This document shows, in pieces, positions 1 through 64,000 of a stretch of 64,000 nt of DNA. Source of the stretch: a virus; the IMG/VR virus record IMGVR_UViG_3300023179_000086, positions 1 to 64,000 of that record, one strand, 5' to 3'. Under the pieces are notes generated by a model. It saw only the letters and a program-made list of their open reading frames with translations. It made no database searches and was not told the origin of the DNA. The stretch's first letter is position 1; every line of letters begins with the position of its first letter. Made by a program: the position numbers and the translations under genes.

Positions 1-73
1 TGGAACGTTGTCGTCGCCCCAGGCGATGGCGACGATAGCGCAAACCGTAATGATGTTATTATAACCTTATTGC

Positions 74-502
74 TTGAACATTAATATGCAACATTGGATG
101 ACATACGTTAAACATAGCTACGAGGTTATTTTAGCAGCCGAAGTAGCAGCGTGTGTCAACCTTGACCCTGAAATAGAAGCTTTCACAGTACATATGTTTG
201 CTAGACATATGGAAAACCCCCTGCTCAACAAAGAACCAATTGCAATAAAGTTGATGGAGGCTATGAGTATTGAAGGTGAGGCTAAAAAGATTACCTTGAC
301 AAAGATTGCAGAAGAATGTATACTCATAGATGGGTTGAAACTTAACAAAGCTAAATGGCCTTCATCCTCGTATTTTGTAGATATGGGGCAATTAGCACTA
401 GGGTATCGTACATATAGTGAACGTCCACCTGAAATGTTTTATGATCGTGTTGCAAGACAATTTAATACAATTTCACGAGTTATTGAGAACTGTCGATTAT
501 GA
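74..502 (+). CDS. hypothetical phage protein (true start possibly ATG 86 or 98)
   Basis: 142-aa ORF whose stop overlaps the next start (ATGA). Confidence 0.6.
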   Translation: MNINMQHWMTYVKHSYEVILAAEVAACVNLDPEIEAFTVHMFARHMENPLLNKEPIAIKLMEAMSIEGEAKKITLTKIAEECILIDGLKLNKAKWPSSSYFVDMGQLALGYRTYSERPPEMFYDRVARQFNTISRVIENCRL

Positions 503-1044
503 AATTATTTGAAATAGCAAATCCTAAACCATTTGTTTTTGTTGATATGGATGGTGTATTAGCAGATTTTGATCAAGCTATTGAAAAGTATGATGGTTTT
601 GACAAAGAAAGTAGAGTTAATAGTCTGCGTAAATTAGGACCACGTGGAGTTAAAGATTTTTTTGCTAGTATGTCACCATTACCTGATGGTATGAAGTTAA
701 TTGAATGGTTAAATGGTCATGATATTGAATGGCGAATTTTAAGTGCACCATTACGTAGTGATGGAGTTGACCCAAAAGATAGTCGCAAAGCAAGTGAAAT
801 AGGAAAAAAAGATTGGTTAGCTACTCATTTAGGATGGGAAGTTGCTAAAAAAGCTATATTTGAGCCTAACAAGTGGAAGTGGGCAAATTATGGTCATCAA
901 GCTGCTATCCTAATTGATGATACGCCTAAAAAAATAGATGCGTTTAATAGTGCAGGTGGTATTGGTATGTTATATACTAATTTAAATTCAGTACTACCTA
1001 AGTTAAAACAAATCTTTCACAGTAATATATCCAAAAAAGATTGA
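499..1044 (+). CDS. HAD-superfamily 5'(3')-deoxyribonucleotidase (NT5C-like)
   Basis: HAD motif I FVDMDGVLADF, motif II ILSAP, motif IV ILIDD; N-terminus MKLFEI resembles a capsid-targeting leader. Confidence 0.85.
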   Translation: MKLFEIANPKPFVFVDMDGVLADFDQAIEKYDGFDKESRVNSLRKLGPRGVKDFFASMSPLPDGMKLIEWLNGHDIEWRILSAPLRSDGVDPKDSRKASEIGKKDWLATHLGWEVAKKAIFEPNKWKWANYGHQAAILIDDTPKKIDAFNSAGGIGMLYTNLNSVLPKLKQIFHSNISKKD

Positions 1045-1093
1045 TTTTTTGCATTGTAGAGGTAAACTAAGTACTTTCTTAAAGGAGTATAGT

Positions 1094-1354
1094 ATGTCCA
1101 CTATTGTGTTTTCAGCAGAGCAGAAAGCAAAACTTACGCATTTGATAAATGAAGGATGCCAAGTAATGCATGAAATTGAAACAATGCAAGATGGGTTAAG
1201 TGACACCATTAAAGCAGTTGCTGAAGAAATGAATATTAAAGCAGCAGTATTAAAGAAAGCGATTCGTATTGCACATAAAGCAGAACTAGGTAAAGCAAGA
1301 CAAGACCATGAATTATTAGAAAATATTTTGGAAACAGTTGGGAAAACAATGTAA
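1094..1354 (+). CDS. dsDNA-binding protein, T4 DsbA-like
   Basis: SD AAGGAG before ATG 1094; ~86-aa helical protein with DsbA-like pattern (IKAVAEEMNIKAAVLKKAIRIAHK); lies just upstream of the polymerase. Confidence 0.6.
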   Translation: MSTIVFSAEQKAKLTHLINEGCQVMHEIETMQDGLSDTIKAVAEEMNIKAAVLKKAIRIAHKAELGKARQDHELLENILETVGKTM

Positions 1355-1357
1355 TTT

Positions 1358-4084
1358 ATGTCTTATGTTGACGCATTATTAGATCGTGAATCTGATATTA
1401 TACATATTGTAGAACGTGATAAAAAAGGTAAACGAATATATCAAGAATATAAAGCAAAATATCTTTTTTATTACACTGACCCTAAAGGGAAATATCGTAG
1501 TGTTTATGGCGATTCGTTGTCTAAAATTACCGCATCAAATAAATCAGAATTTTTAAAAGAATTACGTTTACATAAAGGTAAGTCACAAATTTTTGAAAGT
1601 GACATAAATCCTGTTTTTAGATGTTTATCAGATAATTACTTAGATATACCTCCACCAAGTTTACACGTATGCTTTTTTGATATTGAGGTAAACTTTGATC
1701 CTGATAAGGGTTTTGCTCCTACAGACGATCCTTTTAATGCAGTAAATTCGATATCATTGTATCTAGATTGGATGGATGCATTAATTACACTATGTATTCC
1801 GCCACCAAGTTATGTTGATGATCAAATAGAAGACATTGTAAATAAATTTGAAAATACTATAGTTTGTAAGAATGAAATTGAAATGTTCAATCTATTTTTT
1901 GAATTGATTGAAGATGCTGACGTGCTTACAGGTTGGAATAGTGGTGGTTATGATATACCATACATGGTTAATCGTGTTACACAAATTATGTCAAAAGATG
2001 ATACAAGACGATTTTGCTTGTTTAACCAATATCCAAAACAACGTGAATTTGTACAATTTGATCAAAAACAAGTAACTTATGATTTAATTGGTCGTGTTCA
2101 TATAGATTATCTTGAACTATATAAGAAGTATAATTATGAACAACGACATAGTTATAAGTTAGATTATATTGGTGAGATGGAAGTTGGTGAAAAGAAAACA
2201 GAATATGAAGGAACACTTGATCAATTATATAATAATGATTGGAAAACATTTCTTGAATACAATAGACAAGATACAATGCTATTGTATAAAATTCACGCAA
2301 AATTAAAATTTTTAGATTTAGCCAATAGTATTGCACATCAAAATACAGTACTTTTACCTACTGTAATGGGCAGTGTAGCAATGATAGAACAAGCTGTAAT
2401 TAATGAAGCACATCAACGTGGATTAATTATACCTGACAAACCACCACGAATAGAAGAAGATGAAAGTAAGGCTGCAGGTGCATACGTAGCATATCCTAAA
2501 AAGGGTATACATGAATGGATTGCTGCGGTAGATTTAAATTCACTTTATCCATCAACTATTCGAGCATTGAATATGGCACCTGAAACAATTGTAGGACAAT
2601 TACGTCAAACAATGACCGAAAAATATTTGTACGATAAAGGTCAAAAATTAGCAAGAGAAAAGAAAAAGAATCGTAAAATAGCTGAAGATGAAGAAGTTGA
2701 AGGAGAAGATGGTCCGATCTTGTGGGAAGGTTTATTTGGTACACTAGAATATACTGCAGTGATGAATCAAGAACGTGAAACAATGATTACTATTGATTGG
2801 GAGCGTGGTAAAAAATCTCAGGAATTTAGTGCAGCAGAAATACATAAATTAATTTTTGATAGCGGTAAGCCATGGATATTAAGTGCAAATGGTACTATTT
2901 TTTCTTATGAAAACGAAGGGATAATACCTGGGTTGTTAACGAGGTGGTATAATGAACGTAAACAAATCCAAAAACAATTAAAAGAAGCAAAAACACCTGA
3001 AGAAGCTGAATTTTTTGATAAAAGACAACTTGTAAGAAAAATTTTACTTAATTCAGCATATGGTGCATTATTAAATCAACATTGTCGCTTTTACGATAAG
3101 CGTATAGGTCAAAGCACAACACTAACAGGTAGACAAATTGTTAAACATATGAGTGCTACTTTAAATGAATTGATTGCAGGTGAATATAATCATACAGGTG
3201 AAGCAATTGTTTATGGAGATACTGATTCTTGTTATTTTAGTGGATGGCCTATTTGGAGTAAGGATAAAGATTTAAAAAAGAATTGGACAAAAGAATATGC
3301 TACTGAAATATATGATGAATTAGGTAACAACGTAAATCAGACATTTCCCTATTTTATGCATAATGCGTTTCATTGTCCACAAAAAAATGGATCAATTATT
3401 AAAGCAGGACGTGAATTAGTTGCAGATCGTGGTTTATTCATTACTAAAAAAAGATATGCAGTCAATATATATGATAAAGAAGGTAAACGATTAGACGTAA
3501 ATGGTAAGCTTGGAAAAATTAAAGCAATGGGTTTGGATTTAAAACGTGCAGATACACCAAAGTTTGTACAAGAATTTCTTTTTGGAATACTAGAAAATGT
3601 ATTATCAGGAGCAAACAAACAAGATATCATTGATGAAATTATTCAGTTTAAAAAAATTCTACGAGATATGCCAAGTTGGAAAAAGGGTAGTCCAAAAGCT
3701 GTGAACAAACTTACTATATACGAACAAAAAATGAAAAAAACCCCTGATACTAAAATCAACATGCCAGGCCACGTTCGTGCAAGTTTAAATTGGAATTTTT
3801 TAAAACACTTGAATAATGATAATTATAGTACTAAAATTACTAATGGTGCTAAAGTTATAGTGTGTAAACTAAAAAATAATCCATTGGGGTTTACTAGTAT
3901 TGCGTACCCTACAGATGAATTACGATTACCAAAATGGTTTACTGAATTGCCATTTGATGATAAAGAAATGGAATATATTTTAGTTGATAAAAAAATTGAT
4001 AATTTGTTAGGTGGTTTGGATTGGGACTTGGAACATAATACAAGTATTAGTACAGAATTTAATTCATTGTTTACATTTGAGTAG
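1358..4084 (+). CDS. family B DNA polymerase (gp43-like)
   Basis: Exonuclease motifs FDIE, GWNSGGYD, YNRQD; polymerase motifs DLNSLYPS, KILLNSAYG, YGDTDS, KKRY. Confidence 0.97.
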   Translation: MSYVDALLDRESDIIHIVERDKKGKRIYQEYKAKYLFYYTDPKGKYRSVYGDSLSKITASNKSEFLKELRLHKGKSQIFESDINPVFRCLSDNYLDIPPPSLHVCFFDIEVNFDPDKGFAPTDDPFNAVNSISLYLDWMDALITLCIPPPSYVDDQIEDIVNKFENTIVCKNEIEMFNLFFELIEDADVLTGWNSGGYDIPYMVNRVTQIMSKDDTRRFCLFNQYPKQREFVQFDQKQVTYDLIGRVHIDYLELYKKYNYEQRHSYKLDYIGEMEVGEKKTEYEGTLDQLYNNDWKTFLEYNRQDTMLLYKIHAKLKFLDLANSIAHQNTVLLPTVMGSVAMIEQAVINEAHQRGLIIPDKPPRIEEDESKAAGAYVAYPKKGIHEWIAAVDLNSLYPSTIRALNMAPETIVGQLRQTMTEKYLYDKGQKLAREKKKNRKIAEDEEVEGEDGPILWEGLFGTLEYTAVMNQERETMITIDWERGKKSQEFSAAEIHKLIFDSGKPWILSANGTIFSYENEGIIPGLLTRWYNERKQIQKQLKEAKTPEEAEFFDKRQLVRKILLNSAYGALLNQHCRFYDKRIGQSTTLTGRQIVKHMSATLNELIAGEYNHTGEAIVYGDTDSCYFSGWPIWSKDKDLKKNWTKEYATEIYDELGNNVNQTFPYFMHNAFHCPQKNGSIIKAGRELVADRGLFITKKRYAVNIYDKEGKRLDVNGKLGKIKAMGLDLKRADTPKFVQEFLFGILENVLSGANKQDIIDEIIQFKKILRDMPSWKKGSPKAVNKLTIYEQKMKKTPDTKINMPGHVRASLNWNFLKHLNNDNYSTKITNGAKVIVCKLKNNPLGFTSIAYPTDELRLPKWFTELPFDDKEMEYILVDKKIDNLLGGLDWDLEHNTSISTEFNSLFTFE

Positions 4085-10384: not shown

Positions 10385-10642
10385 ATGAACGAACGAATTC
10401 GAGAACTAGTTAGAGAATCCAATTTAGATGTGTATGGTTTAGGCAAAGAAAGGTATAAGTGGGAATACACTGTAGAAAAATTCGCCGAGTTGATTGTGAA
10501 AGAATGTGTTCAGACCTTGTTGGATAACACACCAGACCCGTTTACCAACGAAGCAGCCGAGGAAGATTGGGATAGAGGATATGACCAAGCAATGAGAGAT
10601 TGTGTGCACCATATCAAAGAACATTTCGGAGTTGAAGGATGA
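10385..10642 (+). CDS. small phage protein of an MNERI..KFAELIV.EC..IKEHFG family
   Basis: Visible paralogy with ORFs at 10817 and 11466. Confidence 0.7.
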   Translation: MNERIRELVRESNLDVYGLGKERYKWEYTVEKFAELIVKECVQTLLDNTPDPFTNEAAEEDWDRGYDQAMRDCVHHIKEHFGVEG

Positions 10643-10833
10643 CGGAAGATTATGACGTTGTATTGGCTACTCTTAAAGAAAAGAGAGATCAACTATGGAC
10701 TATGACCGAACGTAATATGCGTAGTGAATATATTGGAATGAACATTATGGATGACATTAGACTGGATCAGATCCAACAGTTGGAGGAGGCTATGCGTATG
10801 TGGCAAGCAAGAGCAAATGACACCAAGGATTAA
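10639..10833 (+). CDS. hypothetical protein
   Basis: ATGA-coupled 64-aa ORF. Confidence 0.6.
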   Translation: MTEDYDVVLATLKEKRDQLWTMTERNMRSEYIGMNIMDDIRLDQIQQLEEAMRMWQARANDTKD

Positions 10834-11056
10834 AGAACTCATACTAAAGTCAGGTGTGGTACACTTTGAATCTGATGGCAAAATACGGGATGCTGAACGA
10901 TTAGTTAGATTGGTCATAGAAGAATGCCTACTAGCCTTGGAACCTGATTGGTACGGTACCGAAATCGAATACGAGTTTGAACAACGGTTCTTTAGTCGGT
11001 GTAATGCAATTATAAAGAAACATTTTGGATTGAATATTAGAAATAATGATGAATAA
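10817..11056 (+). CDS. paralogue of the 10385 family
   Basis: MTPRIKELI...LVRLVIEECL...IIKKHFG. Confidence 0.65.
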   Translation: MTPRIKELILKSGVVHFESDGKIRDAERLVRLVIEECLLALEPDWYGTEIEYEFEQRFFSRCNAIIKKHFGLNIRNNDE

Positions 11057-11462
11057 CATAAACATAATTAATTATATTCAAAATAGATGGATGGTTATTG
11101 CAAGAATTTTGTATTTTGTATTGTCTTTGGCAATTATATTAGTTTTAATTTATGAGCGATCATATTTAATTAAACCACCACCACCTCCAATACTACAACC
11201 ATCAATTGATATTGATAATATTAATAAAATTATTAGTAATTTAGAGAGAGAAACTAATTCCCAATTAAATGCAATTAAAACACTTGAAACTAAAATTGAA
11301 GAACAAAAAGCAACAACAAATAATTTAGATAAGAAACTTCAATTACAACTTGAATTTAATAAAAGAATATGCGAATATATTTGGGTTATCACTATTGATA
11401 AAAAAATAGTTCCTAGAAAATGTACTCCTGATTTTAATTGGACAAAAGAGGTTGAAAGATGA
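11046..11462 (+). CDS. membrane-anchored coiled-coil protein
   Basis: N-terminal TM helix, poly-Pro linker, heptad-rich region. Confidence 0.6.
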   Translation: MMNNINIINYIQNRWMVIARILYFVLSLAIILVLIYERSYLIKPPPPPILQPSIDIDNINKIISNLERETNSQLNAIKTLETKIEEQKATTNNLDKKLQLQLEFNKRICEYIWVITIDKKIVPRKCTPDFNWTKEVER

Positions 11463-11465
11463 AAG

Positions 11466-11714
11466 ATGAATGATAATATTAAACATATTTGGCATCAAGC
11501 TTCTGCATCTCATGTGCAAGCAATAACAAGTAAACAAACTAAAGAAAATTTTATAATTAAATTTTCTGAGTTGTTAGTTCAAGACTGTTTAGATTCTTTG
11601 ACACACCTTAAAGGATATAGTGGAGTTGGGGAGGATGGTAATCCATACGACACTTCAAGTTGGAATGCTGCCTTAGCTGCTGCGCAAAAATATATTATTA
11701 ATCGATTAAATTAA
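11466..11714 (+). CDS. divergent member of the 10385 family
   Basis: MNDNIK...KFSELLVQDCL. Confidence 0.55.
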   Translation: MNDNIKHIWHQASASHVQAITSKQTKENFIIKFSELLVQDCLDSLTHLKGYSGVGEDGNPYDTSSWNAALAAAQKYIINRLN

Positions 11715-11736
11715 AAAATAATTAAAGGGAAAATAA

Positions 11737-12168
11737 ATGCATCCATTTTATCGTTTAAAAGAACGTTTACAACAAGAAGGATGGTATATAGGATGGGCAT
11801 TACCCTGTTGCCAAACTTGTGCTTGGCAAGAATTACCTTATGAACATGAGGAGGGACCTTTTAAGGGAGAGACACTTGATTGGACTAAATTATTGTTTAG
11901 TCATGAACAAGATTGCATGGTAGATTATGAATATGATGAAACAAATGATGTTCGTATTTTTCCTGATGGTAAAACTGAGGATGATTATGATTGTGTAACT
12001 TTTCCTCATTATAAACCTGAAGAAACTAGCGGTAGTTTATTTTGTTTTAATGGAGATGATGAAGGTATTAAAAATTTAATTAATATTATTCCACTTATAG
12101 AAGAATGTGGTTGTAAAATACAATGGAACAAAAGCGGAGATTCTCGTCCGTATATAAATTGGAATTAA
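11737..12168 (+). CDS. hypothetical protein
   Basis: 143 aa with CCQTCA motif. Confidence 0.65.
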   Translation: MHPFYRLKERLQQEGWYIGWALPCCQTCAWQELPYEHEEGPFKGETLDWTKLLFSHEQDCMVDYEYDETNDVRIFPDGKTEDDYDCVTFPHYKPEETSGSLFCFNGDDEGIKNLINIIPLIEECGCKIQWNKSGDSRPYINWN

Positions 12169-12206
12169 CCATGAGTTACGATTTAAACAACAAGGAGATT
12201 ATTAAC

Positions 12207-12422
12207 ATGACTGATCGTTTCGATTTAGAGCAGCAAATTCTAGGATGTTGGGGGATTATTGACGAAATTAAATTATTAACTGAACAAGTATTAGAGAATG
12301 ATGATTTTGATAAGGATAAAATTTCTAATTTTTTGATTGGACTAGAAACTATATATCAATTAAAATTTGATCACTTATTTACTACATTTGAAACTTTAGT
12401 ACAGGATAGAAAAATCGTATGA
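12207..12422 (+). CDS. hypothetical protein (MTDRFDLEQQI...)
   Basis: SD AAGGAGA before ATG 12207. Confidence 0.65.
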   Translation: MTDRFDLEQQILGCWGIIDEIKLLTEQVLENDDFDKDKISNFLIGLETIYQLKFDHLFTTFETLVQDRKIV

Positions 12423-12655
12423 GTAAATATAAGTTTGGTGATTTTGTTCGGTATGACAACAATGATCTTTATGGCGTAGCATACGTAATTGGACACAAAA
12501 AAATTGAAAATATTGAAATACCAATTATTGCTAATAAAGATTTTATGGGCATGCCAATTAATAGTTTATTTTTGAAATTGGTAGAAACAGGTTGTTTGGA
12601 TATTGCTAAATCGTTACGTGAACAGTACCAATATAATTTTGGAGATTTAATTTAA
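12419..12655 (+). CDS. hypothetical protein
   Basis: ATGA-coupled ORF. Confidence 0.6.
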   Translation: MSKYKFGDFVRYDNNDLYGVAYVIGHKKIENIEIPIIANKDFMGMPINSLFLKLVETGCLDIAKSLREQYQYNFGDLI

Positions 12656-12697
12656 TTATCTAAATAAATTGACTTTTTGTATAGATAAGGTTACATT

Positions 12698-13150
12698 TTG
12701 CAAATGATATTAAAAGCTAAACCGATTATTAAAAATCAATTTTGGGTTGTTACTGATGGTAGCACTAAGATAGGTAATGTTGAAGCTAGTGGAAATGGAT
12801 TTGATTTTAAATCTATTGATGGTAAGATTACACATTTTAAAGATACTACATCTATTGAAAAAACTATTGCTATCCAATTTGAAAAACCGCAAAAAAAATA
12901 TTACAATGTAAATATACCATTTGCAAAATGGCCTACTGAAGGTAAAACATACAATAATATGTATGATGTTAAAAGAAAATTACATGTTTATACTAAATCA
13001 AATAAAAGTAAATGTTATCATGCAGCAGGTTATTTTAAAATTAAAATGAATGATATTTGGCAAGTTATATTTTGTCCAAAGTATATTTTTGTACAGCGTT
13101 ATCCTTATTATGGACCATATAATACTTTGGACGAGGTTAATTCCGAATAA
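12698..13150 (+). CDS. hypothetical phage protein
   Basis: 150-aa ORF downstream of TTGACT-N17-TACATT. Confidence 0.7.
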   Translation: MQMILKAKPIIKNQFWVVTDGSTKIGNVEASGNGFDFKSIDGKITHFKDTTSIEKTIAIQFEKPQKKYYNVNIPFAKWPTEGKTYNNMYDVKRKLHVYTKSNKSKCYHAAGYFKIKMNDIWQVIFCPKYIFVQRYPYYGPYNTLDEVNSE

Positions 13151-13158
13151 ATATAGCT

Positions 13159-13350
13159 ATGATTCATATAAAAAAGTTTATTGACAGGGTTGGTGCTAGT
13201 GATAATACATCAAATCGTGATTTTGTAATGCCCCTAAGTGATGCAAGATATTTACGTGATGAAATTGCTAAATTACTTGTAGATAAGGTACAAACTAAAC
13301 AATCTACTCAAGATATAGTTGAAGTACAAGTTAAAGGAGGTAGATTTTAA
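13159..13350 (+). CDS. hypothetical late protein
   Basis: ATAAATA at 13147-13153 just upstream. Confidence 0.6.
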   Translation: MIHIKKFIDRVGASDNTSNRDFVMPLSDARYLRDEIAKLLVDKVQTKQSTQDIVEVQVKGGRF

Positions 13351-13643
13351 TGTCCCGTACTCAACCAAAAGTTCTTATAGAAATAGTAGACAAAAAGACT
13401 TATAAACTTGATCAAATATTAGAAGCAGCAGGTATATGGGCTATTTTTTACGAAAATCAACCTATAAATTTAAAAAATAGTCATCATTATGATAGCAATA
13501 CTGTTCCAAAATATAAAAAAACAAGTTTCAGTAACCCAGGCCACGCTCGTAATCTATGTAAAAAACTTAATAAACAATTCATGACCGATAAATTTTCCGT
13601 TGTTTTTATGAATCAAGGAACTAAAGTTTTCCCCGATCAATGA
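13350..13643 (+). CDS. hypothetical phage protein
   Basis: 97 aa, PKYKKTSFSNPGHA motif; coupled by TAATG. Confidence 0.7.
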   Translation: MSRTQPKVLIEIVDKKTYKLDQILEAAGIWAIFYENQPINLKNSHHYDSNTVPKYKKTSFSNPGHARNLCKKLNKQFMTDKFSVVFMNQGTKVFPDQ

Positions 13644-14044
13644 AACAGTTTGCTGATAGAGATACTGTTGCAACTAAAATATTACAGCTTATAGAGCAAA
13701 ACGATATCGTTTATAAAGAAACTTTTTGGTATAATTTACGTAAAGATGGTGGATGGAGACTATCTGATATCGGTCATGCTATGTGTGAGCAAGCTAAAAT
13801 TACAAGCACTAGTGTTAAATTGTGGGATGATGGTCACAAATATAGAACTGCAGTTGATTCAAAAACATTATTAAAACTGTCTAAATTCATTCAAAGTCCT
13901 TACTATATTCAGTTCGGAAAAATTAAAAAAAATATTATTAAAACTACGGATATATACCTTAAATTATATGACGAACGTATTGCTACCATGATGATATTAT
14001 ATGGTAGTGTACAAGCATATTTAGAATCAATTGAAAATGTTTAA
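13640..14044 (+). CDS. hypothetical protein
   Basis: ATGA-coupled ORF. Confidence 0.65.
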   Translation: MKQFADRDTVATKILQLIEQNDIVYKETFWYNLRKDGGWRLSDIGHAMCEQAKITSTSVKLWDDGHKYRTAVDSKTLLKLSKFIQSPYYIQFGKIKKNIIKTTDIYLKLYDERIATMMILYGSVQAYLESIENV

Positions 14045-14054
14045 AGGAGAAAAT

Positions 14055-14222
14055 ATGAGTCACGATAAACCAAAAAGTAATATGGCTGATTTATTAGAAA
14101 AAAAGAAAATTTTACAAAGTAATCAACAAAGTAAACTTAATCCTAATGGTGGTAAACAAGGTAAAGTTACTAAAGGTAATAATGGTGCTGCTATGGTTCG
14201 TAGAAGTGGGCGTGGTGGGTAA
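14055..14222 (+). CDS. small basic protein
   Basis: SD AAGGAGA; Lys/Gly-rich, ends RRSGRGG. Confidence 0.65.
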   Translation: MSHDKPKSNMADLLEKKKILQSNQQSKLNPNGGKQGKVTKGNNGAAMVRRSGRGG

Positions 14223-14278
14223 TAATTTTGCAAAATATGTCAACCATTATTATCTTTATGCGTTATATGTAATAGTAT

Positions 14279-14336
14279 AGTTAATATTAAGTTTGCTCTG
14301 CGAAATATTAACTTAGTCCGTAAGGATTATAGAGCA
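14279..14336 (+). ncRNA. candidate pseudoknotted cis-regulatory RNA in the leader of ORF 14357
   Basis: 10-bp stem 14279-88/14304-13; GNRA hairpin 14314-29; 7-bp pairing of loop 14294-14300 with 14330-36. Confidence 0.45.
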
Positions 14337-14356
14337 TTTTTTAAAAAGAGATTATT

Positions 14357-14524
14357 ATGAAACAATTATTCATTGCATTATTTGCTAGCCTTTTTGCAGT
14401 AAGCGCATTCGCTGCTGATGCAAAAAAAGAAGAAAAGAAAGACGCACCTAAAGCTGAAGCTAAGAAAGACGCACCTAAAGCTGAAGCTAAGAAAGACGAC
14501 AAAAAGCCAGCAGAAAAAAAGTAA
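14357..14524 (+). CDS. small secreted Lys/Ala/Glu-rich repeat protein (not in the ORF track)
   Basis: MKQLFIALFASLFAVSAFA signal peptide (AxA), then ADAKKEEKKDAPKAEAKKDAPKAEAKKDDKKPAEKK; 27-bp tandem duplication 14435-14488. Confidence 0.75.
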   Translation: MKQLFIALFASLFAVSAFAADAKKEEKKDAPKAEAKKDAPKAEAKKDDKKPAEKK

Positions 14525-14728
14525 TATTGGTTCGTCGAAAAGACTTGCCACTATTACATAAAAATGACTTTACTGATTTAGAAATATTAGCTTTTGATGA
14601 TGTAGTAGGACGTAACCTAACAAGATTACGTATTGTTCAAGAAAATAATTTAAGTCATTTTGTTAAATTTAGGTTATGGTTGGCTAGACAACTTGCTTTA
14701 AAAAAGTTTGATAAAGTCTTTCAACACT

Positions 14729-14752
14729 AAAAGGCACTTCGGTGCCTTTTTT
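14729..14752 (+). terminator. intrinsic terminator
   Basis: AAAAGGCAC-TTCG-GTGCCTTTTTT. Confidence 0.85.
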
Positions 14753-14779
14753 ATCCACCTATTTTACCGCACTGCAACA

Positions 14780-14787
14780 TATAAATA
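14780..14787 (+). promoter_or_regulatory. T4-type late promoter
   Basis: TATAAATA exact T4 late consensus. Confidence 0.7.
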
Positions 14788-14819
14788 ATTTATATACACA
14801 TACACATGGAGAAACCAAA

Positions 14820-14990
14820 ATGTTTATAACCCAATTTATGCTCAATATCCTTGAGCGTTTGTCAGAAATGTTCCCAAATGATGGTTACCAAAATCGTTTG
14901 GAGCGTTATCTTAGTACAAAAAGCATTACAGATGCTGCTATTCTTGACAATTATATCAAAGAGTTCGAATATCAATCCCATAAGGAATAA
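14820..14990 (+). CDS. small protein, DUF3563-like
   Basis: SD GGAGA; RLERYL...D...L...I.EFE pattern reminiscent of DUF3563 small proteins. Confidence 0.55.
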   Translation: MFITQFMLNILERLSEMFPNDGYQNRLERYLSTKSITDAAILDNYIKEFEYQSHKE

Positions 14991-14994
14991 GAAT

Positions 14995-15105
14995 ATGTTT
15001 AGTTTTTTAGCAAGTATAGGTTATCAAATTTTTAAAGCATTAGAAGCTAGTGGGCAAGCACGTGCTCGCAGATATCTCAGTTTACATAAAGGAACTTGGC
15101 AATGA
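14995..15105 (+). CDS. small peptide (MFSFLASIG...GQARARRYL)
   Basis: SD AAGGA; coupled small-ORF cassette. Confidence 0.55.
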   Translation: MFSFLASIGYQIFKALEASGQARARRYLSLHKGTWQ

Positions 15106-15209
15106 CTTTCTTCAAAATGATCTATGAAATATGGTGCCAAGGATTGTTAGCTAGTCATTTAACACGCAGAGGTAAATGGCAAAGTGCGGTAAAGTTGATG
15201 GGGAAGTAA
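15102..15209 (+). CDS. small peptide (MTFFKMIYEIW...)
   Basis: ATGA-coupled 35-aa ORF. Confidence 0.5.
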   Translation: MTFFKMIYEIWCQGLLASHLTRRGKWQSAVKLMGK

Positions 15210-15210
15210 T

Positions 15211-15333
15211 ATGATTTTTGCATACCTTACACTTGGTTCATTAGCACTTGTTGCTTATATTGATGAAAAGTTAAATCATCAATATGTACTTGGTGAAGAG
15301 TGGGATTTTGTGACACCTAGAATAAAAAATTAA
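15211..15333 (+). CDS. small membrane peptide (MIFAYLTLG...)
   Basis: SD GGGGA; 40 aa. Confidence 0.45.
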   Translation: MIFAYLTLGSLALVAYIDEKLNHQYVLGEEWDFVTPRIKN

Positions 15334-16715: not shown

Positions 16716-16765
16716 TTATATATTTATTATTATCCAAAATAATTGTAATCAATCTGTAAATCATG

Positions 16766-16800
16766 TATAAATATATATGAGAGCACATAGGGTGCTCTCA
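16766..16800 (+). promoter_or_regulatory. late promoter followed by a 5' leader hairpin
   Basis: TATAAATA 16766-73; stem TGAGAGCAC/GTGCTCTCA 16778-16800. Confidence 0.7.
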
Positions 16801-16833
16801 AACTAGACACATACACACATAAAGGAGAGTAGC

Positions 16834-17112: not shown

Positions 17113-17134
17113 TTTAGGGTAATTTCAATCCATT

Positions 17135-17160
17135 AAAGCACAGCTAGTCTGTGCTTTTTT
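17135..17160 (+). terminator. intrinsic terminator
   Basis: AAAGCACAG-CTAGT-CTGTGCTTTTTT. Confidence 0.8.
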
Positions 17161-17208
17161 ATTTCCTTCCTGCTACAATATAAGAAATTTTAAACGGAGA
17201 ATATTCCT

Positions 17209-17865: not shown

Positions 17866-17866
17866 T

Positions 17867-18156: not shown

Positions 18157-18184
18157 GCTTGTATCTTAACAAAAGGACGCAAGC

Positions 18185-55204: not shown

Positions 55205-55316
55205 GTTTCAAATTTGATATATTATCGTGGCTATTGTTCATAAAAAATTTTTCTATTACCCAACCACAAAAATCTTTTTCATTATCTTTAATTGATAGCT
55301 TATAATTGCCAGGATA
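55197..55316 (-). pseudogene. 3' remnant (39 codons) of a ninth desaturase gene
   Basis: Frame reads YPGNYKLSIKDNEKDFCGWVIEKFF...KHE-stop, matching desaturase tails such as PNEY...EFDFSGWLVKKIF; no start; stop overlaps the fabF ATG. Confidence 0.7.
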
Positions 55317-55343: not shown

Positions 55344-56159
55344 TTATATTTTATAAGCTTTTATATCACTAGGATCGATAACGAAGATTTTTTTAACCAA
55401 CCAACCACTAAAATCAAATTCACCAGGAGCCATTGCTTGATTGTATTCATTTGGTTTAGCATGGTGATTATTATGTAATCCTTCACCTAATGTATACCAA
55501 TGTATCCATTTATTATTTTGACTATTATCTGTTGTTTCAAAATTTCTATAAGACAATTTTGTAGGTATATGACTCAATGTTGTCACAAATACCCCACTAC
55601 CAAAGATATACCATCCAATTGGAGCAGCAATAATAAAAACAGGTATTTTCCAATTAAAGAGACCTAGTAATATAGATACAATACCTATAATAGCCCAAAT
55701 CTTAAAATAGTTATGATGAACAAACTGTACCGTTGGATCTCTTATAATATCTTTTGGCAATGTTCTAACTTGTTTTACATTTCTAAACCAATCAAAAGGT
55801 TTTATTTCCCATAGCCCCAATGATTCAAAAATATTATTTTTTGGGCTATGAATATCCCTTTCTTGGTCGCTATATTGATGATGATGTCTATGACTTGTAG
55901 CATATAACACTGGACTTCCAGCACCAATTAACACACTAGCCCAACATAGGAATTTATGTTTATTCCTTGTAGTTACAAAACTACGATGTGCAAAATATCT
56001 ATGCATGGCAATATGATTGGCTGGAATAACCACAATTTTAGCAACTAAAAATGATAGTAAGGTCCATAACCAATTACCAGTATAAAATCCATATACAAAT
56101 GAAAATATCCAGCAAGCTATACCAATAGCCCAAATTGTTCTTAATTTATATAAATTCAT
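55344..56159 (-). CDS. membrane acyl desaturase #3
   Basis: HRYFAH, HRHHH, HNNHH. Confidence 0.92.
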   Translation of the reverse strand: MNLYKLRTIWAIGIACWIFSFVYGFYTGNWLWTLLSFLVAKIVVIPANHIAMHRYFAHRSFVTTRNKHKFLCWASVLIGAGSPVLYATSHRHHHQYSDQERDIHSPKNNIFESLGLWEIKPFDWFRNVKQVRTLPKDIIRDPTVQFVHHNYFKIWAIIGIVSILLGLFNWKIPVFIIAAPIGWYIFGSGVFVTTLSHIPTKLSYRNFETTDNSQNNKWIHWYTLGEGLHNNHHAKPNEYNQAMAPGEFDFSGWLVKKIFVIDPSDIKAYKI

Positions 56160-56746
56160 ATTGAATATTTTTTAATTATTGTATAATAAATTTTTTCATC
56201 AAAAAAACCAATAGTGAAAGATAATCTATTTGTTTTTATATTATGCACACTGTGAATTATATCAGTACGCATGATATTCCAATTGTTTTCAGGAAATATG
56301 ATACTGTCTTGTCTTTCCAGTAAATTTAGATCCCAAACATGGGACCAAGGAGATCTAATTAAATCATTACCAAATTCTTTCCACCATAAAGTTTCAACAT
56401 TTGATCCACCTGTATTAAGAATAAAACTTATACAAAAAGGTCCACGAACTTTACCATCTGTATGAGGATGTAATTGACTTAATTCATTACTATAATTTTT
56501 AATACTTTGAAATCCTATATTAAAATTTGTTTGATTAAATTCTGGGATTATTTCCTTTACATAGTCTATGTATTGATTTTCTAAAGGCCATCTTTTATAT
56601 ACAGCATCATTAACTTCAGTTTTATCAATTTGTAATATTTTTTTATTGCTAATTGCCTGCATATGATCTCCAACAATAGCATTTTCAATTCCATTCCTCA
56701 AATTTGTTGGCAAGGTTGGTAAATTTAAAAGAGCAAATAATTTCAT
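56156..56746 (-). CDS. 2OG-Fe(II)/cupin-fold oxygenase
   Basis: PHTD...IHSVHN...R. Confidence 0.7.
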   Translation of the reverse strand: MKLFALLNLPTLPTNLRNGIENAIVGDHMQAISNKKILQIDKTEVNDAVYKRWPLENQYIDYVKEIIPEFNQTNFNIGFQSIKNYSNELSQLHPHTDGKVRGPFCISFILNTGGSNVETLWWKEFGNDLIRSPWSHVWDLNLLERQDSIIFPENNWNIMRTDIIHSVHNIKTNRLSFTIGFFDEKIYYTIIKKYSI

Positions 56747-57510
56747 ATTTTAATTAAAAAGTATTTTATAAAATATCCTGGAAGATCCCATTCATATTTT
56801 TTCACTGCATAATATGGACTTTTACTATCGGCATGATGATTATTGTGTAGCCCACTACCTAACATTAAAATATTTACTAAAGTATTGTTCTTACTATCAT
56901 CTTTTGTATCAAAATTCCTATAACCCCATTTATGGCAGACTATGTCTATAAGTAAACTACTAGTATGAAAAGTCCAGACTGCACTTGCGCTTATTAGAAA
57001 AACAGCAATTCTAATGTCTATTATAGCTAATGTAAAATATATTATTGTAACAATTAAAAAATAATACTTATGAAAAAATAAGTGCCAAGGTTCAATCGCT
57101 AAATCTTTAACAAGTTTAGGACTAAATTTAACTGGGATCCAATTAACCAACCAAATATTATACCATTTGTAATGCCTAGGACTTTGTGGATCTTTATTTG
57201 TATCACTATATCTGTGATGTATTCTATGTGTTCCTACCCATCCATAACTACTGCCCAAACAATTCAAACTACCTAATACAAGTAGAATTCTTTCTTTCCA
57301 CAGTTGAGTTTGAAAACTTCTATGTGCAAATAATCTATGAAATCCAATTTCACCACCGATTTTTCCAAATAGAATCCATCCAAGCAAGGATACCCACAAC
57401 CAACCCCAATCCAAATCTAAATAAAATAGTGATAACAATGCTAAATGATGAAATACAATTAATATTTTAAATTGTATGTCCATATTTGGTTTTTTAATAT
57501 TATTAAACAT
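56743..57510 (-). CDS. membrane acyl desaturase #4, type C
   Basis: HRLFAH, HRIHH, HNNHH; IDIVCH. Confidence 0.92.
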   Translation of the reverse strand: MFNNIKKPNMDIQFKILIVFHHLALLSLFYLDLDWGWLWVSLLGWILFGKIGGEIGFHRLFAHRSFQTQLWKERILLVLGSLNCLGSSYGWVGTHRIHHRYSDTNKDPQSPRHYKWYNIWLVNWIPVKFSPKLVKDLAIEPWHLFFHKYYFLIVTIIYFTLAIIDIRIAVFLISASAVWTFHTSSLLIDIVCHKWGYRNFDTKDDSKNNTLVNILMLGSGLHNNHHADSKSPYYAVKKYEWDLPGYFIKYFLIKI

Positions 57511-61663: not shown

Positions 61664-62418
61664 TATTTTTTAAGAAGTTTAATAATATTACCTGCAATAT
61701 CATATTCCCATGGCTGAACAGTTGTGGTATAGTTAGTACTGTTATGATGGTGATTATTATGCCAACCTTCCCCCCATAAAAACAAATTTAATAACCAACT
61801 ATTTGTACTATTGTCATTAGTTTCAAATGATTTATAACCATTACTATGAGGAACTAAAATAAATGCGGCTGCAGCAAAATGCGTTAAAATAACAGGGATT
61901 GCATAAAAATATATCATTGTTTTAATACTTATTATACTAAGTAAAGTTACCCATATTAAAATTATTAATACGTAATAATCATTTATAAAAACATGTTTTT
62001 TAGTTAACAGATCCTTTATATATTTTTTTTGTATAGTTTCTCCAAAATTTATCATGATAGGCATTAAAACTTTTAATCCAACATTTTTTGGATTATGTGG
62101 ATCATTAATAGTATCTGATTGTTTATGATGTAAACGGTGAATATAACTCCATCCTAATGGACTCCCACGAACTGATAATATAGCCACGATAGTAAAAAAA
62201 TGTTTTAATAAATTTGTTTTAAAAACAAAACTACGATGTGCATAGTAACGATGTAAACCAATTACAAACCCCAAACAACTGAAAATAAAATAACCTATAA
62301 TAATATTAAGTATATCAATTGTTGTTATATCATATGTAACCAATCCATAGATACTTAATAATAAAAAGGAACCATGTAAGATTGATAAATTTAATCCTGT
62401 TGGACGCAAATAATTCAT
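61663..62418 (-). CDS. membrane acyl desaturase #8, type A
   Basis: HRYYAH, HRLHH, HNNHH; shares RGSP.GW.YIHR with #1. Confidence 0.92.
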   Translation of the reverse strand: MNYLRPTGLNLSILHGSFLLLSIYGLVTYDITTIDILNIIIGYFIFSCLGFVIGLHRYYAHRSFVFKTNLLKHFFTIVAILSVRGSPLGWSYIHRLHHKQSDTINDPHNPKNVGLKVLMPIMINFGETIQKKYIKDLLTKKHVFINDYYVLIILIWVTLLSIISIKTMIYFYAIPVILTHFAAAAFILVPHSNGYKSFETNDNSTNSWLLNLFLWGEGWHNNHHHNSTNYTTTVQPWEYDIAGNIIKLLKK

Positions 62419-62421
62419 AAT

Positions 62422-62442
62422 AATATTTAGGTCCTAAATATT
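62422..62442. promoter_or_regulatory. palindromic back-to-back late promoters
   Basis: AATATTTAGG-T-CCTAAATATT; TAAATA 5-7 nt upstream of each divergent ATG. Confidence 0.7.
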
Positions 62443-62447
62443 TCAAT

Positions 62448-63914
62448 ATGCAAATAATACTTTTTACAGACGTAGCAGACACTATTGGTTATGGAAAATA
62501 TGCAGGTACATACAAATTAGCTACAGAATTACGATTACACAGCTACACTTGTCAAGTTATTGATGTGTTTTCTTATTATTCATGGGCACAACTTACATCT
62601 TTAGCAACCAAATTTATAACAAAAGATACTGTATTGGTTGGATTTAGTTGTACGCTAAGCGAAAAAAGAATACATGGTAAAGTATATAACTTTGGAATGG
62701 AGGATCAACGATTTGTAGATTTCCTTACTTATATAAAACAAATTAATCAAAATGTTCGTGTGGCCTTAGGTGGTGCAAGAATGAATAATATATGCCATTG
62801 GCAAGGTGTAGATTATGTTGTATTAAATAAAGCAGATCGAGCAATTATCGCTATTGTTGAACATCTTTTATACAAAAAAGAATTAATTACTCATCGTCAA
62901 AGTCCATCGTTTCTTGTAGATGGTAACGACTACCCATATAACCAAGAAGATTTTAGTCGTAGCCAAATTATTTTTGAACCTAATGATATCATTTTTCAAA
63001 ACGAAGCACTTCCTATTGAAGTTAGTCGTGGTTGTATCTTTCAATGCGCATTCTGTAGATACGATCACATCGGTAAAAAAATTGGAGAATGGCAAAAAAC
63101 TGCGGATACTTTACGCAACGAATTTCTTCGCAACTATGAATTATATGGTACAACGAATTACATGTTTAGTGATGAGTTAATTAATGAAAGTTTAGACAAG
63201 ATGAATTTTTTGTGTGAAGTAGTGAGTAGTTTACCATTTAAGTTGCAGTATACGAGTTACGCTAGGATTGATTTAATATGGCGATACCCTCAAATGCGTG
63301 AATTATTGTTAGAAAGTGGTGCTATTAGTTTGCAATTTGGTATAGAAACATTGAATGAATCAGTAGGAAAAAAGATTGGTAAAGGATTAGCTACACAAAA
63401 AATTAAAGATACTTTAAGTTATTGTGGTGAATTATGGAAAGATAAAATTATTATGGCAAGCAATTTTATTGTAGGGTTACCCAACGAAACTGAAGAAAGT
63501 ATTTGGAATACAGTAAATTATTTAGTAAGTGACGAATGTAAATTAGATATATTTGGATTTCTGCCATTGGCAATAAAAGTAGAAGATGATGGTAGAAAAT
63601 CAAGTAAAATAGATCGAGATCCAAAAAATTTTGGATATACTATTGTTGCAACAAATGATTGGGATAATGGGCACATGAAATATGAAGATGCTAAAAAATT
63701 AGTACACAGAATTTGGAGAGATCCAAGAGTTCAAAAAAAAGCTAAATTTGGGGCAGCAACTTGGATTGGGAGAATTATTAATCTAGGATATTCATTAGAG
63801 GAAATTTTTATCTTATTAAATGGAAATCTTACTCAACATGAACTATCAACTTTTTTTAAAGACAAAACACTTTCAAAAAAATTAGAATATTATAACAAAT
63901 TAATGGAATTATAA
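62448..63914 (+). CDS. radical SAM enzyme with B12-binding-like N-terminal domain
   Basis: SRGCIFQCAFC (CxxxCxxC), FGIET, FIVGLPNET. Confidence 0.88.
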   Translation: MQIILFTDVADTIGYGKYAGTYKLATELRLHSYTCQVIDVFSYYSWAQLTSLATKFITKDTVLVGFSCTLSEKRIHGKVYNFGMEDQRFVDFLTYIKQINQNVRVALGGARMNNICHWQGVDYVVLNKADRAIIAIVEHLLYKKELITHRQSPSFLVDGNDYPYNQEDFSRSQIIFEPNDIIFQNEALPIEVSRGCIFQCAFCRYDHIGKKIGEWQKTADTLRNEFLRNYELYGTTNYMFSDELINESLDKMNFLCEVVSSLPFKLQYTSYARIDLIWRYPQMRELLLESGAISLQFGIETLNESVGKKIGKGLATQKIKDTLSYCGELWKDKIIMASNFIVGLPNETEESIWNTVNYLVSDECKLDIFGFLPLAIKVEDDGRKSSKIDRDPKNFGYTIVATNDWDNGHMKYEDAKKLVHRIWRDPRVQKKAKFGAATWIGRIINLGYSLEEIFILLNGNLTQHELSTFFKDKTLSKKLEYYNKLMEL

Positions 63915-64000
63915 TGATACAAGAAAATAAACTCATTGGTTTTAGTAATGCGGAAACAACTTATTTTGCATACGAATCATTGCCATTGTGCGGCATTGGT
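63914..64000 (+). CDS. partial ORF running off the window
   Basis: TAATG-coupled ATG; open to the end (MIQENKLIGF...). Confidence 0.55.
   Translation, partial: MIQENKLIGFSNAETTYFAYESLPLCGIG

What the first reader, a model, noticed from the sequence alone, without database searches (positions are those of the whole stretch)
1..64000. Window-wide purge of CCGG and CCAG/CTGG, except inside CCWGG
Seen (by-eye scan, counts approximate): no CCGG in 64 kb, about 27 CCWGG sites, and only about 17 other CCAG/CTGG, nine of them in one 1.3-kb patch. At roughly 30% GC one would expect on the order of a hundred non-CCWGG CCAG/CTGG and a few dozen CCGG. Codon pairs visibly avoid the motif: Pro-Glu as CCTGAA/CCCGAA, Thr-Gly as ACAGGT/ACGGGT. 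Inference: selection against a CCRG/CYGG target that spares Dcm sites. Candidate causes are a host restriction system blocked by CCWGG methylation, a target such as CCRGH, a phage nuclease that degrades host DNA at a motif purged from its own genome, or methyl-C deamination with Vsr-like repair at CCWGG.
Basis: partly seen in the sequence, partly recalled or inferred. Interest (0 to 1): 0.72.

Follow-up and report, generated by a model that had tools for sequence, protein, structure and literature searches.

The report
Phage purge of CCAG restriction targets
A lake-water giant phage has removed nearly every copy of a few short DNA words, probably to dodge its host's DNA-cutting enzymes, and the CCWGG copies that seemed spared are ones that the protein sequence (proline followed by glycine) makes unavoidable.

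Summary
The counts are exact. The window has no CCGG, 27 CCWGG and 17 other CCAG/CTGG, nine of them in 55910-57135. On the whole 73.4-kb contig a synonymous-codon shuffle expects 181±11 CCAGH/DCTGG (19 seen), 24.7 CCGG (3 seen) and 19.1 CGCG (0 seen).

The "sparing of Dcm sites" does not hold. Of the 32 CCWGG, 29 are in-frame Pro-Gly codon pairs, 2 lie in a tRNA-Ala gene and 1 is intergenic. Pro-Gly always encodes CCNGG, so with CCGG banned, CCWGG is forced. Avoidable CCWGG (other frames) is 0-1 against 9.2 expected.

The forced sites carry biased flanks, C-CCAGG-C, about 50% against about 11-13% in unpurged relatives. This is unexplained.

Only the closest relatives share the purge (PolB 89% identity or more). 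Relatives at 67% identity do not.

Best reading: ordinary restriction-site avoidance by a freshwater jumbo-phage clade against several host enzymes, one with the asymmetric 4-base target CCAG. Host and enzymes are unknown. Interest is moderate.

The parts
1..64000 (.). Window-wide purge of CCAG/CTGG, CCGG, CGCG, CAGCTG and TGGCCA. It continues to the contig end at 73399.
   Evidence: CCAGH+DCTGG 19 against 181±11, CCGG 3 against 24.7, CGCG 0 against 19.1, CAGCTG 0 against 12.6, TGGCCA 0 against 8.0 (whole contig, synonymous-codon shuffles).
2927..2932 (+). Forced site: CCT GGG, the Pro-Gly of the conserved PolB motif I-P-G-L. It reads CCCAGG on the other strand.
   Evidence: Pro-Gly at this column in 72 of 74 unpurged PolB relatives, many written CCC/CCG GGN. 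All 7 purged-clade sequences have ATA CCT GGG.
3764..3769 (+). Forced site: CCA GGC, the Pro-Gly of the conserved PolB motif M-P-G-H.
   Evidence: all 7 purged-clade sequences have ATG CCA GGC. Pro-Gly stands at this column in 71 of 74 unpurged relatives, which use all four Pro codons.
1358..4084 (+). Family B DNA polymerase, used to find relatives and place the phage.
   Evidence: PF00136, PF03104; 49% to Sinorhizobium phage Phosso, 45.5% to Agrobacterium phage Atu_ph07, about 42.5% to 121Q-like jumbo phages.
55910..57135 (.). Unpurged patch: 9 CCAG/CTGG outside CCWGG in 1,226 b.
   Evidence: In run X5 a contig over 55431-57793 differs at 83 places, while contigs on either side differ at 4-12. 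One listed change, 55910 C>T, removes a CTGG.
55344..56159 (-). Fatty-acid desaturase paralogue carrying 5 of the patch sites.
   Evidence: PF00487, 1.3e-17; 5 sites, 76% identity to the homologue in the unpurged phage G006.
56156..56746 (-). ORF of unknown family carrying 2 of the patch sites.
   Evidence: no Pfam or PHROG match..
56743..57510 (-). Fatty-acid desaturase paralogue carrying 2 of the patch sites.
   Evidence: PF00487, 3.5e-16..
10532..42564 (.). The 8 avoidable CCAG/CTGG sites left outside the patch: 10532, 10762, 14507, 18220, 36808, 37773, 41368, 42561.
   Evidence: All 8 have C at +1 or +2 after CCAG. CCAGWW is 5 against 111 expected, CCAGCA 6 against 15.8 and CCAGAC 3 against 7.2.
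55309..55313 (.). The only CCWGG in the window that is neither a Pro-Gly codon pair nor in a tRNA (intergenic).
17209..17865 (+). No link to the motif was found.
   Evidence: PF10544, 2.3e-7.
32283..32993 (+).
   Evidence: phrog_298, 2.2e-53. (weak DUF2800 match).
40413..40856 (+).
   Evidence: phrog_3322 3.3e-20, phrog_1035 4.9e-8.

Best explanation
The window is part of a 73.4-kb fragment of an uncultured freshwater jumbo phage related to the Phosso / Atu_ph07 / Rak2-121Q group. Its lineage has removed, by synonymous substitution, nearly every avoidable copy of five short words: the asymmetric tetramer CCAG/CTGG in all contexts, plus CCGG, CGCG, CAGCTG and TGGCCA.

The most likely cause (inferred) is avoidance of several restriction enzymes of its unknown host or hosts, one of which recognises CCAG. 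Fewer sites raise the chance that incoming DNA escapes cleavage.

CCWGG is not protected. It survives only because the dipeptide Pro-Gly must be written CCNGG and the CCGG-containing spellings are also banned (shown). The other survivors are in tRNA genes, where structure constrains the sequence, or in small mosaic patches that were probably imported recently from unpurged phages (partly shown).

At the forced sites the neighbouring synonymous positions are tuned to C-CCAGG-C (shown). I infer that this lowers the cost of each site, for example through slower cleavage in that context.
For: - **Depletion.** CCAG is the most depleted tetramer by Markov (z -12) and by codon shuffle (51 against 217.6, z -16). 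It is depleted in every NCCAGH context at 0-0.33 of expectation, on both strands and in non-coding DNA.
- **Synonymous avoidance.** The codon pairs show it directly.
- **CCWGG is forced.** 29 of 32 CCWGG are in-frame Pro-Gly codon pairs, 2 are in tRNA-Ala and 1 is intergenic. CCWGG in other frames is 0-1 against 9.2. In the unpurged relatives G004+G006, 46 of 227 Pro-Gly pairs use CCC/CCG. In the purged contigs it is 0 of 74 (27+22+12+13, contigs that partly overlap).
- **CCGG survivors.** The only 3 CCGG lie in or abut tRNA-Pro at 73142-73228.
- **Lineage specificity.** L001-L006 (PolB 89-100% identity) show CCAG 0-11 against 12-55 expected, with CCGG 0 and CGCG 0. L007-L011 (PolB about 67%) and the rest show CCAG at or above expectation. 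The sister-species loci L102-L104 are purged too. Other lineages lack other words: L020 has CCGG 0 against 15.3 with normal CCAG, and L031, L033 and L035 have GCGC 0-1. Host-specific restriction pressure would give this pattern.
- **Residual sites cluster in patches.** Nine lie in 1.2 kb here. Eight lie in 555 b of small ORFs in G002/G003. The patch here is about 3.5% divergent between runs, against about 0.3-0.6% in its flanks.
- **CCAG-specific methyltransferases exist.** Examples are Helicobacter pylori A45 hp0944, confirmed by knockout, and CCAG plus TGGCCA motifs in Thermacetogenium phaeum (PMC10689673, passages read). CCAG is also listed as a non-unique Type II motif in Sporosarcina P32a (PMC5930826, table passage).
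- **Flank bias.** In CCAG orientation, C at -1 is 26 of 52 and C after CCAGG is 26 of 52. In the unpurged relatives these are 19 of 181 and 23 of 181 (Fisher 4.5e-9 and 6e-8). The preferred codon positions swap between CCA-GGN and CCT-GGN as a DNA-level rule predicts (Gly third base C:G is 19:1 against 3:8, p 1.7e-4).
Against: - No host, restriction enzyme or methylome is known, so the restriction link is inference from pattern.
- About 50 CCAG sites remain per 73 kb, so escape from an efficient enzyme would still be improbable. The argument needs a per-site chance of escape.
- According to Rusinov et al. 2018 (PMC6286503, abstract and section 13), near-elimination is mostly seen for orthodox Type II sites and in under 0.5% of cases for other types. 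An asymmetric 4-mer is therefore an unusual target.
- Pro-Gly itself is not clearly avoided. Its observed/expected ratio is 0.62 in this contig but 0.91-1.05 in the sister contigs. PolB has 2 Pro-Gly both in the purged clade and in the nearest unpurged group.
- My gene calls are crude (greedy longest ORFs).
- The purged-clade contigs overlap and share ancestry, so their sites are not independent.
- The patch genes are no more similar to the unpurged phage G006 than their purged neighbours are (76/59/75% against 65/77/79%), so no donor is identified.
Confidence: 0.72

Rival explanations
1. One reading: a nuclease targets CCAG (or CCRG), and CCWGG sites are immune because a Dcm-type methyltransferase of the host or the phage methylates them.
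For: Total CCWGG is near the shuffle expectation (32 against 36.6). Pro-Gly is always written CCW-GGN.
Against: Both facts follow from coding constraint alone. Avoidable CCWGG is 0-1 against 9.2. The flank tuning at CCWGG implies that these sites still carry a cost. No C5-methyltransferase (PF00145) is present in this contig, in 8 purged-clade fragments (G001-G003, G008-G012) or in 4 unpurged relatives, G005 (complete, 328 kb), G004, G006 and G007. The fragments cover only a small part of each genome.
Confidence: 0.06
2. One enzyme with the degenerate target CCRG/CYGG accounts for both the CCAG and the CCGG purge, instead of two separate enzymes. This is a sub-variant of the best explanation.
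For: The two purges appear together in the same clade. A palindromic CCGG would be read in both orientations by such an enzyme. That could explain why Pro-Gly always takes CCW (27 of 27) and why CCGG is purged more completely than CCAG.
Against: CCGG is purged alone in another lineage (L020: 0 against 15.3 with CCAG 65 against 41.6), so CCGG-specific pressure exists on its own. CGCG, CAGCTG and TGGCCA need further enzymes anyway. I found no CCRG specificity in the papers searched, and REBASE itself was not available.
Confidence: 0.2
3. The phage encodes a nuclease that shreds host DNA at these words and has purged them from its own genome.
For: The purge is specific to the lineage. Only about 12% of the genome is in hand (CheckV estimate), so such a gene could lie elsewhere.
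Against: About 50 CCAG sites per 73 kb remain, including in essential genes and tRNAs, and a self-encoded nuclease would cut them. Five unrelated words would need several nucleases. The nucleases seen here belong to ordinary replication, recombination or homing families.
Confidence: 0.06
4. Mutational bias: methyl-cytosine deamination at these words, with Vsr-like repair rescuing CCWGG.
For: None specific.
Against: Very-short-patch repair is expected to enrich CCAG/CTGG and deplete CTAG (statement in PMC4687349, passage read). Here CTAG is 137 against 141.9 and CCAG is lost. The loss is context-blind, reaches zero for four words and is compensated by specific synonymous choices. No methyltransferase was found.
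Confidence: 0.02

Closest known systems
Restriction-site avoidance in virulent phages, as surveyed by Rusinov et al. 2018 (PMC6286503, abstract and section 13 read). From memory, not checked here: Staphylococcus phage K lacks GATC.
   Same: Short words are eliminated or nearly eliminated. The effect is specific to the lineage, acts on both strands and is achieved by synonymous changes. Several words are lost at once.
   Different: The main target is an asymmetric 4-mer, whereas the survey found elimination almost only for orthodox Type II sites. The host and its enzymes are unknown. What survives is defined by a dipeptide (Pro-Gly = CCNGG), and the forced sites show tuned flanks. I did not find that last point described, though I ran no search aimed at it.
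CCAG-specific methyltransferases / R-M systems: H. pylori A45 hp0944; T. phaeum CCAG and TGGCCA motifs (PMC10689673, passages read); Sporosarcina P32a CCAG (PMC5930826, table passage).
   Same: They show that bacteria have modification systems with exactly this 4-base asymmetric specificity. One organism combines CCAG with TGGCCA, two of the words purged here.
   Different: Those organisms are not freshwater hosts of this phage. No cognate CCAG nuclease is characterised in the passages I read. The papers' supplements, which may give the system type, were closed.
Evasion of Type III restriction by site orientation (T7 and EcoP15I; recalled from memory, not checked here).
   Same: It concerns an asymmetric target and a phage adapting its sequence.
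   Different: There is no orientation bias here: the remaining sites are 26 CCAG and 25 CTGG on the plus strand. The sites are removed, not aligned.
Dcm/Vsr very-short-patch repair bias in enterobacteria (mentioned in PMC4687349, passage read).
   Same: It involves CCWGG and CCAG/CTGG word frequencies.
   Different: The direction is opposite: that repair enriches CCAG and depletes CTAG. Here CCAG is purged and CTAG is normal.

Membership tests
Restriction-site avoidance by a phage | The word is under-represented against models that account for composition and codon usage. | tested here: met
   z -12 (Markov) and z -16 (synonymous shuffle) for CCAG. CCGG 3 against 24.7, CGCG 0 against 19.1.
Restriction-site avoidance by a phage | The effect acts on DNA: both orientations, and both coding and non-coding sequence. 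| tested here: met
   coding-strand CCAGH 8 against 83.0 and DCTGG 9 against 95.4. Non-coding 2 against about 13.6.
Restriction-site avoidance by a phage | Avoidance is achieved by synonymous codon choice without changing the proteins. | tested here: met
   (codon-pair tables). (conserved PolB Pro-Gly retained, with only the spelling changed).
Restriction-site avoidance by a phage | The profile is specific to the lineage (host) and differs among related phages. | tested here: met
   only the clade with PolB identity of 89% or more (and L102-L104) is purged. Other lineages lack other words.
Restriction-site avoidance by a phage | The host encodes restriction enzymes with the purged specificities. 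| not testable with these tools
CCAG-specific methyltransferases are documented only in unrelated bacteria.
Protection of CCWGG by Dcm-type methylation | CCWGG is free of depletion wherever it could occur. | tested here: not met
   frames 1+2 hold 1 (0 after the correction) against 9.2, minimum 3 in 300 shuffles.
Protection of CCWGG by Dcm-type methylation | A C5-cytosine methyltransferase gene is present in the phage. | tested here: inconclusive
   No PF00145 match in G000, in 8 purged-clade fragments (G001-G003, G008-G012) or in 4 unpurged relatives (G004-G007). Only about 12% of this genome is held.
Protection of CCWGG by Dcm-type methylation | 5-methylcytosine is present at CCWGG in phage DNA. 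| not testable with these tools
   Only contigs of the public runs were available, with no modification signal.
Very-short-patch (Vsr) repair bias | CTAG is depleted, and CCAG/CTGG and CCWGG are enriched. | tested here: not met
   CTAG 137 against 141.9, CCAGH+DCTGG 19 against 181, CCWGG 32 against 36.6.
Type III evasion by uniform site orientation | The remaining sites all point the same way. | tested here: not met
   26 CCAG and 25 CTGG on the plus strand of the contig.

The most novel reading that the evidence does not exclude
The host of this freshwater jumbo-phage clade carries an uncharacterised, flank-sensitive nuclease that reads the asymmetric 4-base word CCAG (possibly CCRG, which would also cover CCGG). 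It cuts best in A/T-rich 3' context and poorly at C-CCAGG-C. The phage has tuned the synonymous neighbours of its unavoidable Pro-Gly sites to that weak context. If so, forced sites in purged phage genomes could be used to read the kinetic preferences of restriction enzymes of uncultured hosts.
Probability: 0.25. Interest if true: 0.6.

Novelty: new member of a known kind. Interest (0 to 1): 0.42.

Why it matters
- It is a very clean natural example of multi-target restriction avoidance in an uncultured jumbo phage. It predicts five restriction specificities of an unknown lake bacterium: CCAG, CCGG, CGCG, CAGCTG and TGGCCA.
- It is a caution for word-frequency scans. An apparent exemption of a sub-motif can be a coding necessity rather than protection by methylation. 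Here Pro-Gly must be written CCNGG.
- The flank bias at forced sites and the clustering of residual sites in mosaic patches give a way to study how fast imported DNA is purged and which contexts cost least. Both can be tested once the host or a methylome is available.

Tried and rejected
- **Nucleotide match.** Megablast of 33031-38483 against the phage records found nothing.
- **Methyltransferases.** Searches for PF00145, PF01555, PF02086 and PF02384 in the contig found none. PF00145 and PF01555 in relatives' records also found none. Because all the purged-clade records are fragments, this does not show that the phage lacks them.
- **Purge at the amino-acid level.** I tested whether Pro-Gly itself is purged. 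The ratio is 0.62 here but 0.91-1.05 in the sister contigs, and PolB has 2 Pro-Gly in both the purged group and the nearest unpurged group. I dropped the idea.
- **Donor of the patch.** I looked in the unpurged phage G006. Identities of the patch genes and their neighbours are alike, so no donor emerged.
- **Assembly chimera.** I considered this for the patch. Contigs from three other runs match parts of it exactly (X3 55793-56483, X6 55878-56355, X9 55814-56077), but no listed piece spans its borders, so the question is not fully settled.
- **Rejected mechanisms.** An RNA-level cause is ruled out because both orientations are depleted on the coding strand. General CpG depletion is ruled out because ACGT is 194 against 191.8. 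I set aside CRISPR PAM avoidance and Chi-like sites from general knowledge, without a test.
- **Literature.** The search for a characterised CCAG-cutting nuclease gave nothing usable. The search for 'restriction site avoidance' plus 'jumbo phage' returned 0 papers.
- **Host.** I did not attempt host identification (CRISPR spacers, tRNA matches, scan of bacterial genomes).

Full report
**What the sequence is.** The window is the first 64 kb of a 73,399-b virus contig with no terminal repeats. CheckV rates it 12% complete.

It encodes a replication module:
- a family B polymerase, a UvsW-like helicase, a DnaB-like helicase and both ribonucleotide reductase subunits;
- a UvdE endonuclease and a 5'-3' exonuclease;
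- a weak Toprim match and an HNH endonuclease.

The polymerase is 49% identical to that of Sinorhizobium phage Phosso, 45.5% to Agrobacterium phage Atu_ph07 and about 42.5% to 121Q-like jumbo phages. One relative at 60% polymerase identity is a complete 328-kb genome with terminal repeats. So this is a fragment of a jumbo phage. By their records, public runs that hold the 53-60 kb stretch are lake, freshwater or aquatic metagenomes: 12 rows in 6 studies, two of them flagged as a possible source.

| Null model | Word | Observed | Expected |
|---|---|---|---|
| Maximal-order Markov (window, both strands) | CCAG | 44 | 223.4 (z -12) |
| 200 synonymous shuffles (whole contig) | CCAGH+DCTGG | 19 | 181.3±10.9 |
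| same | CCGG | 3 | 24.7±4.2 |
| same | CGCG | 0 | 19.1±3.8 |
| same | CCWGG | 32 | 36.6±3.4 |
| same | GATC | 203 | 215.3 |
| same | CTAG | 137 | 141.9 |
| 120 synonymous shuffles (whole contig) | ACGT | 194 | 191.8 |

CCAG is the most depleted tetramer in the Markov model. There is no general CpG or palindrome effect, since GATC, CTAG and ACGT are normal.

Two palindromic hexamers are also absent: CAGCTG (0 against 12.6) and TGGCCA (0 against 8.0). Their Poisson probabilities are 3e-6 and 3e-4.

Both orientations of CCAG are lost on the coding strand (8 against 83.0 and 9 against 95.4). Non-coding DNA is depleted too (2 against about 13.6). The target is therefore double-stranded DNA.

**Why CCWGG is still there.** I placed every CCWGG in its reading frame.
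- By my crude gene calls, 27 of the 28 sites inside genes are CCA/CCT followed by GGN in frame, that is, Pro-Gly.
- The 28th (41178) is CCT GGG in the plus-strand ORF 41052-41360.
- The site at position 19 is Pro-Gly in the open frame at the contig start.
- Two more lie in a tRNA-Ala gene at 72674-72748, and one (55309) is intergenic.

All 27 Pro-Gly dipeptides are spelled CCW-GGN. Pro-Gly can only be written CCNGG: CCA and CCT give CCWGG, while CCC and CCG give CCGG. With CCGG banned, CCWGG cannot be avoided.

Where CCWGG can be avoided (NCC-TGG, NCC-AGG, NNC-CAG-G, NNC-CTG-G) it is missing. The count is 1 by the crude calls and 0 after the correction above, against 9.2 expected, with a minimum of 3 in 300 shuffles.

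An internal control points the same way. CCA is shunned before Val/Ala/Asp/Glu codons (8 of 167, against 54% elsewhere), where switching to CCT removes the site. It is used freely before Gly (15 CCA, 12 CCT), where switching does not help.

The two Pro-Gly of the polymerase sit in conserved motifs. I-P-G-L is kept in 72 of 74 unpurged relatives and M-P-G-H in 70 of 74, with Pro-Gly kept at that second column in 71. Those relatives use all four Pro codons; all 7 purged-clade sequences use CCT GGG and CCA GGC.

The unpurged relative G004 has 13 of 78 coding CCWGG outside Pro-Gly and spells 12 of 77 Pro-Gly with CCC/CCG.

The "sparing of Dcm sites" is thus a coding residue, not protection.

**Other survivors.**
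- The three CCGG of the contig (73141, 73170, 73183) lie in or abut a tRNA-Pro gene at 73142-73228.
- Nine of the 19 avoidable CCAG/CTGG sit in the 1.2-kb patch, which covers two fatty-acid-desaturase paralogues and an unknown ORF.
- In run X5 the contig across 55431-57793 differs from the window at 83 places, while its neighbours differ at 4-12. In run X3 a second, much more divergent allele joins the left flank.
- The patch is therefore a mosaic, polymorphic segment, best read as a recent import from an unpurged phage. No donor was found: the unpurged phage G006 carries the whole lipid cassette at similar identity in patch and non-patch genes.
- The sister contigs G002 and G003 have their own 555-b patch of small ORFs holding 8 of their 9 and 11 residual sites.

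**Who shares the purge.** Of 80 loci found with the polymerase, the six at 89-100% identity are purged: CCAG 0-11 against 12-55 expected, CCGG 0, CGCG 0, and CCWGG near expectation. The five at about 67% identity and the other 69 are not. Whole contigs of the purged sister species also lack CAGCTG and TGGCCA and hold CCWGG almost only as Pro-Gly (22 of 23, 12 of 12, 13 of 13). The same holds in a different genome region (L102-L104).

Other lineages lack other words. L020 lacks CCGG alone, and several lineages lack GCGC and CGCG. Host-specific restriction pressure would give this pattern. It also shows that CCGG can be purged independently of CCAG.

**A new detail: tuned flanks.** Read in the CCAG orientation, the forced sites prefer C before CCAG and C after CCAGG.
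- In this contig CCCAGG/CCTGGG is 15 against 5.6±1.9 (maximum 11 in 200 shuffles), and CCAGGC is 14 against 7.4.
- Over 52 distinct Pro-Gly contexts of the purged contigs, both flanks are C in 26. In G004+G006 the figures are 19 and 23 of 181 (Fisher 4.5e-9 and 6e-8).
- The preferred codon positions swap with orientation. The Gly third base is C:G = 19:1 after CCA and 3:8 after CCT (p 1.7e-4). The preceding third base is C:G = 18:7 against 1:7 (p 0.005). This fits a rule on DNA rather than on codons, although the unpurged relatives already show a weaker form of the first asymmetry (15:1 against 15:8).
- The avoidable survivors outside the patch also tend to carry C at +1 or +2. CCAGWW is 5 against 111, CCAGCA 6 against 15.8 and CCAGAC 3 against 7.2.

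I infer that the cost of a site depends on its flanks and that the phage has minimised it where the site cannot be removed. The mechanism is open: slower cleavage, faster protective methylation, or something else. The sites share ancestry, so the statistics overstate independence.

**Cause.** No DNA methyltransferase family (PF00145, PF01555, PF02086, PF02384) matches the contig. The nucleases present belong to ordinary families.

CCAG-specific methyltransferases are documented. H. pylori A45 hp0944 was confirmed by knockout, and T. phaeum carries CCAG and TGGCCA motifs (PMC10689673, passages). CCAG is also listed for Sporosarcina P32a (PMC5930826, table passage). Systems with this specificity therefore exist. 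The papers' supplements, which may state the system type, were closed.

The survey of Rusinov et al. (PMC6286503, abstract and section 13) found near-elimination in 7.1% of orthodox Type II site-genome pairs and in under 0.5% for other types. A nearly eliminated asymmetric 4-mer is thus an uncommon case of a common strategy.

A nuclease encoded by the phage is hard to square with about 50 remaining sites per 73 kb. Vsr-type repair predicts the opposite bias.

**Verdict.** The finding is a clear new example of restriction-site avoidance with two instructive twists, a dipeptide-forced residue and tuned flanks. It is not a new kind of system.

Noticed in passing
window 46533-63914: A large lipid-type cassette. 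It holds eight fatty-acid-desaturase-family paralogues (47219, 49093, 55344, 56743, 58267, 59464, 60264, 61663), a beta-ketoacyl synthase (53990-55204), a Rieske protein (49876-50682), a cupin protein (52752-53378) and a 488-aa radical SAM protein (62448-63914). Part of it is syntenic in the unpurged jumbo phage G006.
   Followed up: partly
G000 66973-73228 (L081 3474-9729), beyond the window: A cluster of nine tRNA genes (Met, Cys, Trp, Arg, Ser, Asn, Thr, Ala, Pro). The window itself has none. tRNA-Pro and tRNA-Ala hold the contig's only CCGG sites and one residual CCAG.
   Followed up: yes
whole contig: TCGA (83 against 124, z -5.0) and AGCT (164 against 206, z -4.4) are mildly depleted, and GGCC is 23 against 33. 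These may be weaker or older avoidance signals. CAGG/CCTG, CCAC and CTGC are enriched, apparently as the synonymous replacements.
   Followed up: no
L090 13586-14311 (G002), also G003 17782-18336: A run of small ORFs (about 76-112 aa) with no family match, two of which translate to similar short peptide stretches. It holds 8 of that contig's 9 residual CCAG sites.
   Followed up: partly
window 6341-7384 and 38688-39329: A UvdE-type UV-damage endonuclease (PF03851, 8.6e-42) and a class II aldolase (PF00596, 2.3e-27) sit inside the replication / nucleotide-metabolism region.
   Followed up: no
window 33031-35703 and 41631-44360: Two proteins of about 900 aa have no PHROG match. The first has only a weak C1q-like Pfam hit (2.3e-4, below the cut-off). 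The second evolves fast: 70% identity in the sister species, where PolB is 90%.
   Followed up: no
related loci L031, L033, L035, L040, L043, L044: Other lineages of this phage group lack GCGC and CGCG almost completely (for example 0 or 1 GCGC in 18-22 kb) while keeping CCAG. These are different avoidance profiles within one phage family.
   Followed up: no
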